From assembly GCA_030432735.1 (NCBI GenBank), contig JAUIMK010000003.1:1-48442 (forward strand): a stretch of DNA of 48,442 bases, written 5' to 3'. The stretch comes from a bacterium. GTDB taxonomy: Bacteria; Myxococcota_A; UBA9160; UBA4427. Shown here in pieces: positions 12,306-17,367 of this stretch. Below the pieces are notes generated by a model. It had not been told where the DNA came from, ran no database searches, and worked only from the letters and a program-made list of their open reading frames with translations. Numbering within the stretch: position 1 is the stretch's first letter; every line of letters starts with the position of its first letter. A program made the translations under genes and the position numbers.

Positions 12306-13136
12306 TCACCCCTCGAGCAGCCGCCCCGCATCGTCGTAGTCGATCAGTCCGAGCCGCGCGCCGAAGGCCGGATCGTAGGAGCGGAAGCCGAGCAGGTACT
12401 GGACGTCCGCCGGAAGCGTCTTCGCGACGTCGAGGGGCACCGTCAGCTGGTGGTTCTCCTCCGCGCGCAGCCAGCCGCGGCAGAAGCCCGCGTGGAGTCC
12501 GACGCGCCACTCGTCCTCCGTGGTGTTCGCGCCGCCTCCGTGGACCACCTTGCCGGAATAGAGCAGCGCCGATCCCGCCGGCATCGTCGCGCGACAGGTG
12601 GTGCCCGGCGGCACCTCCGGCAACGCCCCTTCCCAGTGGTTCGAGCCGGGCGCGATCACCGTCGCGCCGTTCTCCTCGGTGAAGTCGGTCAAGGCGAAGA
12701 TCGCGGTCACGGTGATCTCGTCGTCGCGCATCGCGTGGGGCCAGTTGAGCTCGTCGCGGTGGAGCATCTGGGCCGTCTCGCCGGGACCGATGCAGATCAG
12801 CTGGCCCGTGTTCAGCCAGTACTCGTTCCGGCCCAGATAGCGATCGCCCATGCTGCGATAGGCCTCGTCCTGGAGGAGCTCGACCCAGGCGGGCGACACC
12901 GCCGGCAGTCCCGTGATGCGCTTGGTCTGCTCGCCGTGGAACTCGGTCCAGAGGCCGGGGGTCGTGCTCCCCGGCGTCTTCTTCGCGACGAGCGGCGCGA
13001 CGTCGCTCTGCAGCCGCGCGAGGAGCGCCTCGTCGAGGAATCCCTCGACGATCACGCCTCCGTCCCGGTCGAAGGCAGCAAAGACCCGGTCCCAATCGAG
13101 ATCGTCGCTGCGCTGGAAGTGCTGGAGCTCGGGCAT
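12306..13136 (-). CDS. Phytanoyl-CoA dioxygenase (PhyH) family Fe(II)/2OG dioxygenase
   Basis: QMLHRD (HxD), NGATVIAPGSNHW, VVHGGGAN, WLRAEEN. Confidence 0.92.
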   Translation of the reverse strand: MPELQHFQRSDDLDWDRVFAAFDRDGGVIVEGFLDEALLARLQSDVAPLVAKKTPGSTTPGLWTEFHGEQTKRITGLPAVSPAWVELLQDEAYRSMGDRYLGRNEYWLNTGQLICIGPGETAQMLHRDELNWPHAMRDDEITVTAIFALTDFTEENGATVIAPGSNHWEGALPEVPPGTTCRATMPAGSALLYSGKVVHGGGANTTEDEWRVGLHAGFCRGWLRAEENHQLTVPLDVAKTLPADVQYLLGFRSYDPAFGARLGLIDYDDAGRLLEG

Positions 13137-13285
13137 CGTCGATCCTCGTGCTGGTCTGCGTCTGCGACTGCATCTACGTTTGCGCGGAGCGCGCCGCAGA
13201 GCGGCCTCTCCAGGTTTATCAGGCGCACGCGGCGAGAGCCACGCAATCGTGTGTCCCGGACGGGAACGCCCGGTACCCTCCCGCC

Positions 13286-14425
13286 ATGCCGACGATCCAG
13301 GAGACGATTCCCGATCATCTCGCCGACGCGGCGGAGGCGGCTCGGGCGTGGTTCTCCGCGGATCAGGGCAGCGAGTTCAAGGTGACCGGAATCGTCGATC
13401 CGGGCGACTCGACGGAGGTCCCGCTCCAGCTGATCCTCTGCGGGACCCAGGCGGGCCAGGACGTCTGCCTGCGGGAGCGATTCGACGTGCGCCGCGCCGC
13501 CGAAGGCTTCGACGTCGCGCACCTCGAAGACCCGCCGCCCGCCTTCGGCTCGGTGGCATCGCTCCTCGATCCTCCGGAGGGGGAACGCCGGGGCTGGCTC
13601 GAGGCGACGATCGCGAAGCACGCCTTCACCGTCGTGCTCTTCTATCGCGGCTTCTGGTGACCGCCCTGTCGCCGCGAGTTGCGCGGCTACACCCAGGAAG
13701 GCGTCACCGAAGCCATCCGCGCGGCGGGCGGTGAGATCTACGCGGTCACGAGCGAGCCGCATTCCCTCGCGAGAGACGCCGAGGCCGACTGGGAAACGGG
13801 ACTCACCCACGTCGGTGATCCGCACCAGGAGATCGAGGCGACCTGTCGCGAACGCGGTTGGCTCGCGCTCTTCACGCATCACTGGGACGGCGATCGGCTC
13901 GGCGCCCACGCCGACTGGCTCTCCCACCCGAAGGGCTACTACCAGCCCGGAGTGTTGGTACTCGGCCGCGAAGGGCGCGTGCTCTATCGCTGGCGATCGC
14001 GTCCGAGCCGCTCGAATACCGGCGGCGCGACGGGCCGGCCGACGGCGGCGCACGTCTGGAGCGCCGTCCAGGCGGAGCTCGCGAAGCCCGCCGACGCCCC
14101 CGATGCGCCCCCCGACGACGACCCGACCCTCGATTCGCCGCCCACGCCGTGGCCGCTCTTCGTGCTGCTCCTCCTCGCGAACGGGTGGTTCCTGAAGCCG
14201 CAGACCTTCGATCACTTCGGCGGCGAATTCACTTCCTTCGAACGCATCCGACGCGCGCAGAAGCGTATGGCGGTCTTCGTCGTCGCGTGGATCGCCGCGG
14301 CCTGGCTCCTGCCTGGCTGGCTCGTCGCCCTCGCCTTCGCCGCCTGGGCGATCAAGGTCGGGCCCGGCGTGCGAGACATCCACAGAGGCTTCCAGAACGT
14401 CGGACCGGACGAAGAACCGGACTGA
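13286..14425 (+). CDS. Probable selenoprotein: peroxiredoxin/AhpC-TSA-like redoxin with UxxC, an N-terminal domain and a C-terminal hydrophobic region (TGA 13658-13660 read as Sec)
   Basis: ORFs 13148-13660 and 13679-14425 share a frame and join across one TGA as VVLFYRGFW-U-PPCRREL, matching the redoxin FYRGxWCPxC motif. It continues IYAVTSE...HVGDP...QPGVLVLGREGRVLYRW. A SECIS-like hairpin follows the TGA. Confidence 0.82.
13671..13687 (+). promoter_or_regulatory. Putative bacterial SECIS element
   Basis: GCCGCG-AGTTG-CGCGGC 6-bp stem. The apical loop starts after a 16-nt spacer from the TGA and has G at loop position 2, fitting the bacterial SECIS model. Confidence 0.65.
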
Positions 14426-14497
14426 CGCCCGGTCGCTGGTCGGTCGCGCGGGACTGGTCGAATCTCCCCCGCAATCCCGCACAGAGGAACCGACGAC

Positions 14498-15337
14498 ATG
14501 GCGCTCTCCATCCAGCCGACAGGCCACGTCTGTGGCGCGCGCGTCACGGGGCTCGACCTGACCACGTCGCTCGACGACACGACCGTCGCGGCGCTCCGGG
14601 ACGCGTGGCTCGAGCATCACGTGCTCGTCTTCCCCGGCCAGCCGATCGACGACGACGATCTCGAGCGCTTCGCGCGCTATTTCGGCCCTTTCGGACACGA
14701 TCCCTTCTTCGGCCCGATCCCGGGTCGCGAGCACATCGCAGCGATCCGCCGCGACGCCGACGAGACCTCGCCGCTCTTCGCCGAGAACTTCCACTCGGAC
14801 TGGAGCTTCCAGGAGCGGCCGCCCCAGGGCACGGTCCTGCGCAGCGTCGTCACGCCCCCGAGCGGGGGAGACACGCTCTTCGCGGACCAGCACGCCGCCT
14901 ACGCGGCGATGCCGAGCGTGCTCCGCGAACGAATCGACGGGCTGCGCGCGATCCATTCCGCGAAGCTGCCCTATTCGAAGGAGGGCACCTATGGTGAGGC
15001 GGACCGGAGCGCCCGCAGCATGGACATCCGGCCATCGGACGAAGCCCTCGCGGAGTTCGTTCATCCGCTCGTCCTCGAGCACCCCGAGACCGGTCGTCGC
15101 GGCGTCTTCAGCACGCTCGGGTACATCATCGGGATCGAAGGGATGGCGCCGGAGGAAGCGATCCCGCTCCTCAAGGAAGTCTACGACTGGCAGACCCGGG
15201 AGGAAGTGATCTACCGCCACGTCTGGGAGCCGGACATGCTGGTCCTCTGGGACAACCGCAGCGTCCTCCACGCGGCGACCGGCGGCTACGAAGGCCACGA
15301 CCGTCTGCTCCATCGCACGACGATCGGGGCCGCCTAG
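14498..15337 (+). CDS. TauD/TfdA family Fe(II)/2OG dioxygenase
   Basis: FHSDWSF (HxD), GGDTLFAD, HPLVLEHPETGR, WDNRSVLHAA, RLLHRTT. Confidence 0.93.
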   Translation: MALSIQPTGHVCGARVTGLDLTTSLDDTTVAALRDAWLEHHVLVFPGQPIDDDDLERFARYFGPFGHDPFFGPIPGREHIAAIRRDADETSPLFAENFHSDWSFQERPPQGTVLRSVVTPPSGGDTLFADQHAAYAAMPSVLRERIDGLRAIHSAKLPYSKEGTYGEADRSARSMDIRPSDEALAEFVHPLVLEHPETGRRGVFSTLGYIIGIEGMAPEEAIPLLKEVYDWQTREEVIYRHVWEPDMLVLWDNRSVLHAATGGYEGHDRLLHRTTIGAA

Positions 15338-15361: not shown

Positions 15362-16561
15362 TCAGGCGAAGAAGGCGTCGATCGTCTCGCCCATGTAGGC
15401 GATCCCCTCGTCGTCGATCCCGTGGTTCGACGGCAGGATGAGCCCCTGCTCCATGACCCGGTCACAGTGGCCGAGTCCGCCCGGCGCGATCCGATGCGGC
15501 TTGTCGCGGAACGCCGGCTGTCGCGCCACGTTTCCGCTCCACACCATCCGGGTGTCGATCCCGCGCGACTCCATGTGCTTCTGGAACTCGCCCCGGCGCA
15601 CGCCGGACTCCGGACGGATCAGGAAGGGATACATGTGCCAGGCGGTCTCGATTCCCGGCGTGATCCGCGGGAGCACGAAGACGTCCGGGCGTTTCGCGAG
15701 GATCTCCGTCAGGAGCGCGAAGTTGCGCTGACGTCGCGCGAGATTCTCCGGCAGCTTCCGCATCTGGACGCAGCCGAAGGCCGCCGAGAGCTCGCTCGGC
15801 TCGAAGTTCCATCCCACCTCGTCGAAGATGAAGAGGTCGTCGTACTCGAGGCCGTCGAGGTCGCTGAAGAAGGTCCGGGTCCCCTTCTGCGAGCCGAAGA
15901 ACTTGGGCTCGGAGCGCCGGCCCCAACGACGGAGCGTGAGCGCGCGGTCGACGAGCGCTTCGTCGTCCAGGCAGACCATGCCGCCGGTTCCCGCCGCCGT
16001 GATGATGTGGGAGAGCGCGAAGCTGGTGACCGTGATGTCCGAGCGGGTCCCCGTCGGCGTCCCGTCGAGGGTCGCGCCCAGGCAATCGCAGCTGTCCTCG
16101 ATCACCTGGAGTCCGTGCCGGTCCGCAATCGCGCGGATGTCGTCCCAATTCGGGCAGTTCCCGATCAGGTTCGGCGCGAGGATCGCCTTCGTCTTCGGAC
16201 CGATCGCGCTCTCGATCTGGTCTACGTCGATCTGGTAGGTGTCCTCGGTCACGTCGACCAGGACCGGCACGAGGTTCGTGCGCAGGATCGACGCGATGTC
16301 CGTCGAGAACGTGAGCGCGGCGGTCAGGACTTCGTCGCCGGGTTCGAGGCCGAGCAGCTCGACGGCCAGGTAGAGCGCGCTCGATCCCGAGTTCACCATC
16401 ACGCCCCGGCGCTTGCCGAAGGCCTCGGCGACCAGACGCTCCATCTCGCGCGTGTGCTTGCCGAGCCGAAGCGCCGTCGCGCCCCCGCGCAGGACGGAGA
16501 CGACCGCCTCGATCTCCTCTTCGTCGTGAACGCTCCCCGCATACTCGATCCGCTTCGTCAC
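15362..16561 (-). CDS. DegT/DnrJ/EryC1/StrS family PLP enzyme, His-type (E1/ColD-like sugar-nucleotide 3-dehydratase subgroup)
   Basis: VNSGSSAL, IEDSCDCLG, SFALSHIIT (His at the usual Schiff-base Lys position), GIDTR; GTG start overlaps the SDR stop. Confidence 0.88.
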   Translation of the reverse strand: MTKRIEYAGSVHDEEEIEAVVSVLRGGATALRLGKHTREMERLVAEAFGKRRGVMVNSGSSALYLAVELLGLEPGDEVLTAALTFSTDIASILRTNLVPVLVDVTEDTYQIDVDQIESAIGPKTKAILAPNLIGNCPNWDDIRAIADRHGLQVIEDSCDCLGATLDGTPTGTRSDITVTSFALSHIITAAGTGGMVCLDDEALVDRALTLRRWGRRSEPKFFGSQKGTRTFFSDLDGLEYDDLFIFDEVGWNFEPSELSAAFGCVQMRKLPENLARRQRNFALLTEILAKRPDVFVLPRITPGIETAWHMYPFLIRPESGVRRGEFQKHMESRGIDTRMVWSGNVARQPAFRDKPHRIAPGGLGHCDRVMEQGLILPSNHGIDDEGIAYMGETIDAFFA

Positions 16562-17367
16562 GCGCCCTTCTCCCGGTTGAGTTCGACGGCGTCGAAGCCC
16601 GACGCCGCCACGTTTTCTTCGACGGCCTCGGGGTAGGCCGGCGTGATGGCGATCCGCCGGATCGTCTCGCGGGCCGCGAGCGCGTTCACCACCTGCTCGC
16701 CGATCGAGGACGGATCCATCATCCGCCCGTAGAGGTAGCCCTGTCCCTGCCACTGCTGGACGATGGGAATCACGCGCTCCACGTCGACGCCGTGTCCGAA
16801 CTCGGAGAGGGTGTCGCCGCAGGCGATCGCGGTGAAGCCGACGGCGCGATGCTCCCCCTGCCAGGCCTCGATGAGGCGCTCGAGGGCGACCTTGCTCACG
16901 CCGTAGGTCGCCTGGTACGGCCGCGGCGGTGAGTCGTCGATCGTGATCGACGAGATGATCACGGCGCGACCTCGCGTGGCGGTCAGGTGTGCGATGGCCG
17001 CGTTCAACACGAGGGAGACGCCGAAGACGTTGGTCGCGAAGACGTCGTGCCATTCCTGCGCACCGATCTCCTCGATCGGTCCGAAGGTCGAGATCCCCGG
17101 CGCGTAGACGACCGCGTCGAGCCCCCCGAGCCCGTCGACCGCCGTCTCGACGGCGGACCGGCAGGAGGCCTCGTCCCGGACGTCGCACGGGACCGCGAAG
17201 GCGCCCTCGCCCGCCGCTTCGACGGTCTCGGCCAGACGATCCGTCCGCCGGGCCGCGACGCAGACGCGTCCCCCCTCGCGCGCCACTTCGAGCGCGGAAG
17301 CCTTGCCGAGCCCGGAGCTCGCTCCGAGGACGAGCACCCGTCTACCATCCAGTCGCATCGAAACCAC
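16558..17367 (-). CDS. SDR family oxidoreductase
   Basis: GASSGLG, CDV, YGVSK (YxxxK). Confidence 0.9.
   Translation of the reverse strand: MVSMRLDGRRVLVLGASSGLGKASALEVAREGGRVCVAARRTDRLAETVEAAGEGAFAVPCDVRDEASCRSAVETAVDGLGGLDAVVYAPGISTFGPIEEIGAQEWHDVFATNVFGVSLVLNAAIAHLTATRGRAVIISSITIDDSPPRPYQATYGVSKVALERLIEAWQGEHRAVGFTAIACGDTLSEFGHGVDVERVIPIVQQWQGQGYLYGRMMDPSSIGEQVVNALAARETIRRIAITPAYPEAVEENVAASGFDAVELNREKGA

What the first reader, a model, noticed from the sequence alone, without database searches (positions are those of the whole stretch)
13286..14425. Hidden selenoprotein: in-frame UGA in a UxxC redoxin motif with a SECIS-like hairpin
Seen: two same-frame ORFs are separated only by TGA at 13658-13660. 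Readthrough gives TVVLFYRGFW-U-PPCRREL, where TGA falls exactly on the first Cys of the Prx-like FYRGxWCPxC motif. A perfect 6-bp hairpin (GCCGCG-AGTTG-CGCGGC) follows at SECIS-compatible distance, and the downstream ORF has only a TTG start with no SD. Known: bacterial Sec is encoded by UGA plus an adjacent SECIS, and thioredoxin-fold UxxC proteins are common selenoproteins. Inference: a 379-aa selenoenzyme that standard callers split or call a pseudogene.
Basis: partly seen in the sequence, partly recalled or inferred. Interest (0 to 1): 0.88.

Follow-up and report, generated by a model that had tools for sequence, protein, structure and literature searches.

The report
Unannotated membrane-anchored Prx-like selenoprotein gene
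The in-frame TGA is a real selenocysteine codon in a 379-residue membrane-anchored, peroxiredoxin-like redox protein that gene callers split in two; the kind of protein is already known, so this is a well-supported annotation fix, not a new mechanism.

Summary
Window 13286-14425 (+) is one 379-codon gene. Its TGA at 13658-13660 falls on the first position of a U-P-P-C redox motif. In related genomes, all 31 matches that span this residue carry exactly one TGA. In 80 named genome loci, 77 of 81 motif instances have TGA at this codon and 4 have Cys codons.

The hairpin at 13671-13687 meets all four published bacterial SECIS constraints. Across 83 distinct sequences, 97% of its cells are paired, against 31-55% when the partners are slid. 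Three of its six pairs show compensatory changes, and synonymous sites are frozen in the stem.

The genome encodes tRNA-Sec, SelA, SelB and SelD. All 22 relatives that carry the family have selA, while selA was not found in 3 of 4 Cys-form genomes.

The protein has three parts: a cystatin-like N-domain with an invariant Cys pair, a Prx-fold domain, and a C-terminal hydrophobic anchor. "Prx-like UxxC" selenoproteins have been described since 2005, so this is a new member of a known kind. Databases hold it as split "hypothetical" fragments. Its substrate is unknown, and selenium incorporation has not been shown biochemically.

The parts
13286..14425 (+). Complete selenoprotein CDS: 379 codons plus the terminal TGA, with Sec at codon 125.
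   Evidence: Homologues align from residue 1 to about 378 in one frame. Among 16 homologues, the codon aligned to position 1 is ATG in 13 and GTG in 1. The tblastn match of the other 2 began at query residues 3 and 6.
13286..13540 (+). N-terminal domain, about residues 1-85: one helix packed on a 4-stranded antiparallel sheet, a cystatin/NTF2-like arrangement. No Pfam family.
   Evidence: AF2 models. VIA-align best match 3ima_D: Z 7.2, rmsd 2.6, 70 residues aligned. The tool warns that Z under 8 may be generic. Foldseek found no match at E <= 0.001. Pfam found nothing for residues 1-124.
13439..13441 (+). Codon of Cys52, invariant in the family.
   Evidence: Invariant column in A2 (26 sequences) and A4. 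It lies on strand 47-55, facing Cys61 on strand 58-70 across a 2-residue turn. That register is inferred from the DSSP string.
13466..13468 (+). Codon of Cys61, invariant in the family. It is the probable cross-strand partner of Cys52.
   Evidence: The pairing is an inference; no distance could be measured.
13565..14089 (+). Prx-fold (AhpC/TSA-like) redoxin domain, about residues 94-268. The TGA interrupts it.
   Evidence: Pfam PF00578 scores 27.3 bits against a cut-off of 26, over residues 112-183. Foldseek matches AhpC 1n8j_A at E 1.2e-5 and PrxQ 5iow at TMt 0.65.
13658..13660 (+). Sec codon (UGA), residue U125, first position of the U-P-P-C128 motif.
   Evidence: DNA contigs of two public runs cover the whole stretch and list no difference at this place.
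13667..13669 (+). Codon of Cys128, the proposed resolving partner of U125. It aligns with the peroxidatic position of canonical Prx.
   Evidence: Invariant in A2. It aligns with the Sec of this genome's own TxxU peroxiredoxin.
13671..13687 (+). bSECIS core hairpin: stem 13671-13676 / 13682-13687 and apical loop AGUUG at 13677-13681. A weaker 3-bp lower stem extends it to 13667-13691.
   Evidence: MFE is -10.5 kcal/mol for 17 nt and -13.1 for 25 nt. Covariation is shown. Synonymous sites are frozen. The four model constraints are quoted.
14147..14194 (+). First C-terminal hydrophobic segment, residues 288-303.
   Evidence: Hydropathy scan. AF2 helix 289-298.
14267..14356 (+). Second hydrophobic stretch, residues 328-357, with Pro-Gly in the middle. 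AF2 models it as a helical hairpin. Together with the first segment it is the likely membrane anchor; the topology is unresolved.
   Evidence: AF2 helices 317-341 and 344-368.
14423..14425 (+). True stop codon, also TGA.
   Evidence: The terminal stop is TGA in 12 of 16 homologues, so TGA is an ordinary stop in these genomes.

Best explanation
Window 13286-14425 is a single gene for a 379-residue selenoprotein.

How decoding works: during translation, the mRNA hairpin 16 nt downstream of UGA-125 (stem 13671-76 / 13682-87, loop AGUUG) is bound by SelB carrying Sec-tRNA(Sec). Selenocysteine is inserted instead of termination. The same hairpin bases also encode R129-R130-E131-L132-R133-G134, so RNA structure and protein sequence constrain each other.

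What the product is: three parts. (1) A cystatin-like N-domain carrying an invariant Cys52/Cys61 pair. (2) A peroxiredoxin-fold domain with a thioredoxin-type U125-P-P-C128 centre. (3) A C-terminal hydrophobic anchor.

How it probably acts (inferred): the selenolate of U125 attacks an oxidised substrate, either a disulfide or a hydroperoxide near the membrane. C128 resolves the intermediate into a selenylsulfide, which a cellular thiol system then reduces.

What is shown: the gene structure, the conserved Sec codon, the conserved and covarying SECIS, the Sec machinery in the genome, and the fold. What is inferred: actual Se incorporation, the catalytic cycle, the substrate, the membrane topology and the role of the N-domain.
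For: Gene and Sec codon:
- One frame, TGA at codon 125.
- 31 of 31 matches spanning residue 125 in 61 related genomes hold exactly one TGA.
- TGA is in the same column in 16 of 16 homologues.
- 77 TGA and 4 Cys codons among 81 instances in 80 named loci.
- 12 full-length database homologues have Cys there, FYRGFWCPPC.

SECIS:
- It meets the published constraints: 5-nt loop, 6-bp stem, G at loop position 2 followed by U, 16-nt spacing, MFE -13.1.
- Across 83 distinct sequences 97.0% of cells are paired, against 31-55% when slid.
- 3 of 6 pairs show compensatory change. 49 double-change cells were observed against 3.8 in shuffles, and 0 of 500 shuffles reached the observed value.
- Pair 17-27 uses CG, GC, UA, AU, UG and GU, and is never unpaired.
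- A non-synonymous base of residue 130 covaries with the wobble base of R133.

Synonymous freezing:
- R129 is CGC in 84 of 85, E131 is GAG in 85 of 85, and G134 is GGC in 50 of 51.
- Mean codon entropy is 0.80 bits for codons 126-136 against 1.44 elsewhere.
- The lowest 11-codon window in the gene is 123-139.

Downstream start excluded: the supposed TTG start codon is TTA in 31 of 85 homologues.

Machinery: tRNA-Sec, selA, selB and selD are present. selA is present in 22 of 22 relatives with a strong family match. None of the 6 relatives without selA has one. selA was not found in 3 of 4 Cys-form genomes.

Same genome: three more redoxin genes have TGA at the redox motif and (A)GUU(G)-loop hairpins.

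Cys forms: their hairpins fold weakly, at -6.7, -7.8, -3.0 and -0.3 kcal/mol.

Fold: AhpC and PrxQ.

DNA reads: DNA contigs of public runs show no difference at the TGA.
Against: - There is no biochemical evidence of selenium in the product.
- The contigs from RNA libraries lie on both sides of the TGA, but none bridges it. The tool warns that such libraries can hold DNA.
- The single-sequence folding z-score is unremarkable: -1.76 for the 66-nt context.
- The UGA-to-loop spacing of 16 nt sits at the lower limit of the published 16-37 range.
- 15 of 83 distinct sequences carry a G.G mismatch at pair 16-28.
- The 4 Cys forms still have 5-6 of 6 positions pairable if wobble is counted. The Sec/Cys contrast therefore rests on energies, with n = 4.
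- The Pfam hit is marginal: 27.3 against 26 bits, and 23.2 when the TGA is unread.
- The genome is a 544-contig assembly with 5.34% contamination and two copies each of selA and selB. Part of the machinery could belong to a second strain.
- No conserved neighbour gene gives a clue to function.
Confidence: 0.9

Rival explanations
1. Same selenoprotein, different chemistry: it is a peroxidase. U125 reduces hydroperoxides directly, perhaps membrane lipid hydroperoxides. C128 acts as the resolving residue, as in a glutathione-peroxidase-like cycle. It would not then be a thiol:disulfide oxidoreductase.
For: The fold is Prx-like. C128 occupies the peroxidatic position of canonical Prx. The hydrophobic C-terminus places the enzyme at the membrane. 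From recall, not from a call: Sec at the N-terminus of helix 1 of a thioredoxin fold is also the position of the catalytic Sec in glutathione peroxidases.
Against: The Pro and Thr of the Prx PxxxTxxC signature are replaced by R121 and U125. The literature files UxxC Prx-like proteins as 'thiol:disulfide oxidoreductase', and says the motif is thioredoxin-like. No assay exists either way.
Confidence: 0.3
2. The TGA is a stop codon. The locus would then encode a 124-residue N-terminal protein and a separate 248-residue protein started at TTG 13679, which is how gene callers read it.
For: Table-11 ORF calling gives exactly these pieces. 107 of the 120 best database hits are fragments of 218-279 aa.
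Against: The TGA cuts the redoxin fold between strand 114-120 and the active-site helix 126-137. Cys-form homologues are single polypeptides of 387-401 aa. The TTG is TTA, which is not a start codon, in 31 of 85 homologues. The TTG also lies inside the conserved hairpin loop. The stem covaries.
Confidence: 0.02
3. The gene is a pseudogene inactivated by a nonsense mutation, or the TGA is an assembly error.
For: A single in-frame stop is the usual mark of a pseudogene. A few relatives do look broken: a frameshift in L031, and extra TAG codons in L021 and L035.
Against: The same codon is TGA in 96 of 100 instances, across homologues down to about 44% identity, with conserved protein on both sides. 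DNA contigs of public runs agree at the site.
Confidence: 0.01
4. The UGA is decoded without selenocysteine. This could happen by a reassigned genetic code (for example UGA = Trp or Gly), or by near-cognate read-through.
For: None specific. Read-through of UGA occurs at low levels in bacteria (recalled).
Against: TGA also ends the gene in 12 of 16 homologues. The position pairs with Cys in homologues, not with Trp or Gly. A covarying hairpin of SECIS geometry follows it. The full Sec machinery is present and co-occurs with the TGA form.
Confidence: 0.02

Closest known systems
Prx-like thiol:disulfide oxidoreductase selenoproteins (PF00578, UxxC/UxxU). These are the 'Prx-like protein' of the Sargasso Sea study and 'Prx-like 1' of the GOS study.
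   Same: Distant AhpC/TSA homology with a thioredoxin-like UxxC motif in place of TxxU. There is a bSECIS inside the coding region just after the UGA. The family is marine, and the function is uncharacterised. Sources: passages of PMC1088965; Table 2 of PMC2398784; Table 1 of PMC13188914.
   Different: This subfamily adds a roughly 85-residue cystatin-like N-domain with an invariant Cys pair and a C-terminal hydrophobic anchor. No NCBIfam model covers it. It is almost always Sec in the loci sampled (77 of 81), and it occurs in up to 5 copies per genome. I could not compare it with the listed representative WP_010940744.1, because no tool fetches by accession.
Canonical Sec-containing peroxiredoxin (PxxxTxxU), as in Eubacterium acidaminophilum. 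This genome has its own copy at G000:C4.
   Same: The same fold family, with a Sec in the active-site turn and a SECIS hairpin just downstream.
   Different: In canonical Prx the Sec is the peroxidatic residue at the last position of TxxU. Here Sec takes the place of the Thr, and Cys128 takes the peroxidatic position. The signature Pro is Arg121.
E. coli fdhF-type bacterial SECIS and the bSECISearch consensus model.
   Same: A stem-loop immediately 3' of UGA, with a small apical loop holding G followed by U, spacing within 16-37 nt, and MFE below -7.5 kcal/mol. The constraints are quoted from PMC13188914, Fig. 2 legend.
   Different: The stem is short (6 bp), and the spacing is at the minimum of the range. 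Rfam release 15 gave no relevant match here. Binding by this organism's SelB is untested.
SelL-related redox protein (NCBIfam NF040769).
   Same: A Prx-like redoxin family that contains selenoproteins. It was the best NCBIfam hit.
   Different: It scores 17.7 bits against a cut-off of 120, so this protein is not a member.

Membership tests
Bacterial selenoprotein gene (Sec-UGA with bSECIS) | In-frame UGA that aligns with Cys in homologues, with conserved protein sequence on both sides. | tested here: met
   TGA in 77 and Cys codons in 4 of 81 instances. 66 invariant columns are spread over the whole length of the 26-sequence alignment A2.
Bacterial selenoprotein gene (Sec-UGA with bSECIS) | Stem-loop meeting the bSECIS model: 3-9 nt loop, 4-16 bp stem, G in the first two loop positions, 16-37 nt from UGA to the loop, MFE <= -7.5 kcal/mol. 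| tested here: met
   The constraints are quoted. Observed: 5-nt loop AGUUG, 6-bp stem, 16-nt spacing, MFE -10.5 and -13.1. The loop's A, G and the second U are invariant in 96 sequences.
Bacterial selenoprotein gene (Sec-UGA with bSECIS) | The RNA structure is under selection (covariation). | tested here: met
   3 of 6 pairs show compensatory change, and 0 of 500 shuffles reach the observed covariation score; synonymous sites are frozen in the stem.
Bacterial selenoprotein gene (Sec-UGA with bSECIS) | tRNA-Sec, SelA, SelB and SelD encoded in the genome. | tested here: met
   all score over the curated cut-offs. selA is in 22 of 22 relatives that have the family.
Bacterial selenoprotein gene (Sec-UGA with bSECIS) | Selenium demonstrated in the polypeptide. 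| not testable with these tools
   This needs 75Se labelling or mass spectrometry.
Prx-like thiol:disulfide oxidoreductase selenoprotein (PF00578, UxxC) | Match to PF00578 (AhpC/TSA). | tested here: met
   27.3 bits against a cut-off of 26 with Cys in place of U, which is marginal. It scores 23.2 bits with the TGA unread. The fold search supports the Prx fold.
Prx-like thiol:disulfide oxidoreductase selenoprotein (PF00578, UxxC) | UxxC motif at the active-site turn, in place of TxxU/C. | tested here: met
   U125-P-P-C128. U aligns with the Thr and C128 with the Sec of this genome's own TxxU Prx.
Prx-like thiol:disulfide oxidoreductase selenoprotein (PF00578, UxxC) | Sequence relationship to the published representative (WP_010940744.1). 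| not tested
   No tool fetches a protein by accession.
Canonical peroxiredoxin | PxxxTxxC/U active-site signature. | tested here: not met
   The Pro is R121 and the Thr is U125. Only the Cys position is kept, as C128.
SelL-related redox protein (NF040769) | Score over the curated cut-off of 120 bits. | tested here: not met
   17.7 bits.
Cystatin / NTF2-like fold (N-terminal domain) | Structural match clearly above background. | tested here: inconclusive
   Best Z is 7.2 (3ima_D, rmsd 2.6, 70 residues aligned). The tool states that Z under 8 is typical of unrelated models. Foldseek found nothing at E <= 0.001.

The most novel reading that the evidence does not exclude
This may be a distinct, almost obligately Sec-using three-domain family: a cystatin-like Cys-pair domain, a UxxC Prx-fold domain and a C-terminal membrane hairpin. 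No family model or paper that I could see describes it as such. It has expanded to several paralogues per genome in marine genome bins labelled Myxococcota and Gammaproteobacteria. It could carry out a membrane-proximal redox reaction not yet assigned to any selenoenzyme, with the N-domain Cys52/Cys61 pair relaying electrons to the U125-C128 selenylsulfide.
Probability: 0.35. Interest if true: 0.55.

Novelty: new member of a known kind. Interest (0 to 1): 0.4.

Why it matters
There are three practical points.

1. Annotation. Public databases hold this gene family as 240-250-aa "hypothetical protein" fragments. No NCBIfam model recognises it, so a widespread marine selenoprotein is systematically missed. 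The 26-sequence alignment and the SECIS pattern found here would be enough to build a model that fixes this.

2. A clear example of dual coding. A base that changes residue 130 (Arg, Ser, Leu, Phe, His or Ala) covaries with the silent wobble base of Arg133 and with residue 134 (Gly, Ser or Asp). Here an RNA structure visibly shapes protein sequence.

3. Sec dependence. In the sample the family is about 95% Sec, and Cys forms appear mainly where selA was not found. That makes it a useful case for asking what Sec provides that Cys cannot.

None of this changes what is understood about Sec decoding.

Tried and rejected
Things that led nowhere:
- Genomic context. The window's neighbours are PhyH (12306-13136, minus strand), TauD (14498-15337) and DegT (15362 onward, minus strand). 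They recur in only 5, 5 and 3 of 100 loci. All-against-all clustering of flanking ORFs found no conserved neighbour. The other large clusters are antisense or overlapping ORFs of the gene itself in GC-rich DNA.
- Solved structures. A profile of A2 against PDB sequences gave 0 hits at E <= 0.01.
- Rfam. An E-value search of 13500-13900 gave only two chance-level matches to unrelated families.
- C-terminal 111 residues. Only a sub-threshold FA_desaturase hit, E 0.0051, which I did not use.
- N-domain fold. Foldseek found nothing at E <= 0.001. The VIA-align cystatin-like matches are within the background range.
- RNA evidence. Four 151-nt contigs from two metatranscriptome runs of one study lie at 13386-13536, 13663-13813, 13715-13864 and 13799-13949. 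None bridges the TGA. The tool warns that DNA can be present in such libraries, so I do not claim transcription.
- DNA evidence. Runs X2 and X3 gave contigs of identical length and nearly identical depth. They may be one data set, or the source sample, so they are not independent support.

Limits on the tree and on novelty claims:
- The tree is FastTree only and midpoint-rooted, so I make no claim about the ancestral state.
- Literature. 'selenoprotein' + 'Myxococcota' returned 4 papers whose titles and abstracts in the listing were unrelated to this family. 'selenocysteine/UxxC/peroxiredoxin-like/metagenome' from 2018 on listed nothing that names this architecture. The GOS paper's Figure S1 (Prx-like fusion proteins) and its datasets may bear on novelty.

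Rows dropped:
- P0005 was left out of alignment A2, because its predicted sequence is out of frame across the active site.
- L021, L028, L031, L035 and L036 were left out of A2 as truncated or broken.
- The codon-entropy analysis kept 85 distinct sequences of the 93 long Sec forms.
Full report
OBSERVATION. The window has ATG at 13286, and one reading frame that is open to TGA at 13658-13660. The same frame continues to TGA at 14423-14425. Reading the first TGA as U gives a 379-residue protein with ...VVLFYRGFW-U125-P-P-C128-RRELRGY.... A perfect 6-bp hairpin, GCCGCG-AGTTG-CGCGGC, lies at 13671-13687. Table-11 ORF calling instead lists a 248-aa ORF starting at TTG 13679, inside the hairpin loop. 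The protein database holds exactly that fragment (P0002).

IS THE TGA A CONSERVED CODON? I searched 61 genomes (the window's own plus 60 relatives), reading through stops. This gave 46 matches.
- 31 matches span residue 125 (E <= 5.5e-43), and every one holds exactly one TGA.
- 5 are C-terminal pieces that do not reach residue 125, and they hold none.
- 10 are weak hits to other small redoxins.
In 16 of 16 full-length loci the TGA falls in the same MAFFT column, inside an invariant FYRG[FR]W-U-PPCR motif, at 44-78% identity to the query. A scan of species-representative genomes found 168 relatives. In the best 80 loci, 77 of 81 motif instances have TGA, and 4 have TGT or TGC. One locus holds two tandem copies. 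The terminal stop is TGA in 12 of 16 homologues, so TGA is an ordinary stop in these organisms.

In the protein database, 107 of the best 120 hits are fragments of 218-279 aa. Those that carry a name are called 'hypothetical protein'. The other 13 hits are full length, 387-401 aa. Twelve of them read FYRGFWCPPC, and P0005 is out of frame there. This is the TGA/Cys pairing expected of a selenoprotein family.

THE HAIRPIN. A 2026 review quotes the bacterial SECIS model as follows: a 3-9 nt apical loop, a 4-16 bp upper stem, G in the first two loop positions (usually followed by G or U), 16-37 nt between UGA and the loop, and MFE <= -7.5 kcal/mol (PMC13188914, passages read). Here the loop is the 5-nt AGUUG, the stem is 6 bp, the spacing is 16 nt, and the MFE is -10.5 (17 nt) or -13.1 kcal/mol (25 nt). 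Energy alone is weak evidence in DNA this GC-rich, with z between -1.8 and -2.6. Covariation is decisive:
- In 96 Sec-form sequences (83 distinct), 97.0% of cells are paired, against 31-55% with the 3' partners slid by 1-3 columns.
- 3 of 6 pairs show compensatory change.
- 49 cells carry double changes, against 3.8 in shuffles (0 of 500 shuffles as high).
- Pair 17-27 uses CG, GC, UA, AU, UG and GU, and is never unpaired.
- One recurrent imperfection is a G.G mismatch at pair 16-28, in 15 of 83 distinct sequences. It occurs in the variant with Ala at residue 130.

Column 17 is the second base of codon 130, which varies among Arg, Ser, Leu, Phe, His and Ala. Column 27 is the silent third base of Arg133. 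So a change of amino acid is matched by a silent change across the stem. Column 16 is the first base of codon 130, and it pairs with the first base of codon 134 (Gly or Ser). In one sequence, Arg129 CGU pairs with codon 134 GAC (Asp).

Synonymous sites give an independent test. R129 is CGC in 84 of 85 sequences, E131 is GAG in 85 of 85, and G134 is GGC in 50 of 51. The same amino acids elsewhere in the gene use two to six different codons. Mean codon entropy is 0.80 bits for codons 126-136 against 1.44 elsewhere, and the lowest 11-codon window in the gene is 123-139. The four Cys-form loci fold weakly at the same place: -6.7, -7.8 (a different structure), -3.0 and -0.3 kcal/mol. Most Cys forms have Leu in place of Arg133.

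MACHINERY. The genome is 544 contigs, 91% complete and 5.3% contaminated. It has tRNA-Sec (67.8 bits; ARAGORN calls it SeC, anticodon tca), selA (545 and 519 bits), selB (349 and 306 bits) and selD (264 bits). Among the 61 genomes, all 22 with a strong family match have selA over its cut-off. None of the 6 without a selA match has the family. These genomes are kin, so the counts are not independent. Of the four Cys-form genomes, selA was found only in the one whose Cys form is nested among Sec forms (L042). It was not found in the other three, whose completeness is not given. The window's genome also has three more AhpC/TSA-type genes with a TGA at the redox motif. One is a canonical FTPG-U peroxiredoxin. 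The other two are UxxC redoxins, and one of these lies next to selB. Their hairpins have (A)GUU(G) loops like this one.

THE PROTEIN. The AF2 model (pLDDT 80.8, pTM 0.73) shows three parts.

(1) Residues 1-85 form a helix on a four-stranded sheet. They have no Pfam family. The only structural matches are cystatin/NTF2-like and within background (best Z 7.2). Cys52 and Cys61 are invariant. They face each other across a beta-hairpin. That is my inference from the strand register, since no distance could be measured.

(2) Residues 94-268 form a peroxiredoxin fold (AhpC 1n8j_A at E 1.2e-5; PrxQ at TMt about 0.6). The Pfam AhpC-TSA score is marginal, 27.3 against 26 bits. In an alignment with this genome's own Sec-peroxiredoxin, U125 falls on the Thr of the PxxxTxxU signature, C128 falls on the peroxidatic position, and Arg121 falls on the signature Pro. 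The site is therefore thioredoxin-like UxxC on a Prx scaffold. The 2005 Sargasso Sea paper says exactly this of its 'Prx-like' selenoproteins (PMC1088965, passages read).

(3) Residues 288-303 and 328-357 are hydrophobic, and the second stretch is modelled as a helical hairpin. There is no N-terminal signal peptide. The loop before the hairpin is rich in Arg and Lys. I therefore infer, with low confidence, a cytoplasm-facing enzyme tethered to the membrane.

MECHANISM. The decoding step (UGA, SECIS, SelB, Sec-tRNA) is strongly supported by comparative evidence, but it has not been shown biochemically. The catalytic cycle is inferred by analogy with CxxC/UxxC thioredoxin-fold enzymes: U125 attacks, C128 resolves to a selenylsulfide, and a thiol system reduces it. 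The substrate is open, and could be a disulfide or a hydroperoxide. No conserved neighbour helps to decide.

DISTRIBUTION. The record labels of the 80 loci are mostly Myxococcota or 'Deltaproteobacteria', and marine Gammaproteobacteria (Halieaceae, Pseudomonadales, Azotimanducaceae, Pseudohongiella). Single loci are labelled Hydrogenedentota, Alphaproteobacteria, Acidimicrobiales and Acidobacteriota. The Cys forms are labelled Saprospiraceae and Verrucomicrobiales. Some labels are doubtful (see the items noticed in passing). Genomes hold up to 5 copies. A FastTree of 77 Sec and 16 Cys rows needs only 2 Sec/Cys changes.

READS. DNA contigs of two runs cover 13150-14550 with 3 differences, none at the TGA. 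The two may not be independent. Contigs from RNA libraries lie on both sides of the TGA, but none bridges it.

COMPARISON AND NOVELTY. 'Prx-like' UxxC selenoproteins appear in the Sargasso Sea study (22 sequences) and as 'Prx-like 1' in the GOS study (pfam00578, UxxC, 225 sequences). The 2026 review lists them as 'Prx-like thiol:disulfide oxidoreductase'. This gene meets the two features that define that class. It is not a canonical peroxiredoxin, and it is not a member of NF040769. I saw no description of the N-domain plus anchor architecture. I therefore file it as a new member of a known kind.

VERDICT. I put confidence at about 0.9 that this is a true Sec-encoding gene. Interest is moderate (0.4). 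It is a clean, database-wide annotation gap and a good example of a SECIS constraining protein sequence, but it is not a new principle.

Noticed in passing
G000:C211:2617-3006 (L118), next to selB at G000:C211:616-2508: A second UxxC redoxin gene (FFRGHW-U-PYC) has an in-frame TGA, hydrophobic N-terminal segments, and a hairpin GUCGCCG-AGUUG-CGGCGAU with the same loop as the target. It lies about 100 bases from one of the two selB copies.
   Followed up: partly
G000:C4:25517-25897 (L117) and G000:C129:2580-2849 (L119): Two further candidate selenoproteins sit in the same genome. One is a canonical peroxiredoxin, FPKAFTPG-U-TVEL (88 bits to PF00578). The other is a UxxC redoxin, FIRHFG-U-LFC. 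Each has a stable hairpin after the TGA.
   Followed up: partly
G000:C428:3265-6542, G000:C487:1671-3035, G000:C211:616-2508: The assembly holds two selA copies (545 and 519 bits) and two selB copies (349 and 306 bits). Nearly all relatives show one selA. This could be a real duplication, or a second strain in a bin with 5.3% contamination.
   Followed up: no
L037/L076/L093 and L096: Some taxonomic labels look wrong. The closest homologue (72% identity) is labelled 'uncultured Spirochaetaceae', although genome search places that genome (G010) in the window's own genus, whose other members are labelled Myxococcota or Deltaproteobacteria. One locus with this bacterial-type in-CDS SECIS is labelled Nitrosopumilus, an archaeon, which probably reflects mis-binning.
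   Followed up: no
L085:2171 and L085:3364; G009, G018, G010, G036: The family is multi-copy. One Pseudomonadales-labelled genome has two tandem copies. G009 has 5 family matches, G018 has 3, and G010 and G036 have 3 each, all with the TGA.
   Followed up: no
L031 (G035:C104), L021 (G046:C17), L035 (G021:C613): Some copies look damaged. L031 changes frame near residue 227-231. L021 has an in-frame TAG at codon 346. L035 has 3 TAG codons besides the TGA. These may be decaying paralogues or assembly errors.
   Followed up: no
P0005: A 395-aa database protein of this family reads out of frame for about 35 residues, exactly across the active site, and then returns to frame. It looks as if a gene call or assembly skirted the TGA.
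   Followed up: no
window 12306-13136 (-), 14498-15337 (+), 15362-16600 (-): The flanking genes are a PhyH-family dioxygenase, a TauD/TfdA-family dioxygenase and a DegT/DnrJ-type aminotransferase. They are conserved next to the gene only in the closest relatives: 5, 5 and 3 of 100 loci.
   Followed up: yes
A3 columns 16 and 28 (window 13673 and 13685): The variant with Ala at residue 130 (GCGCCG/CGGGGC) keeps a G.G mismatch in the middle of the stem. It recurs in 15 of 83 distinct sequences from several clades, and its MFE is still -8.1 kcal/mol. This SECIS seems to tolerate that internal mismatch.
   Followed up: partly
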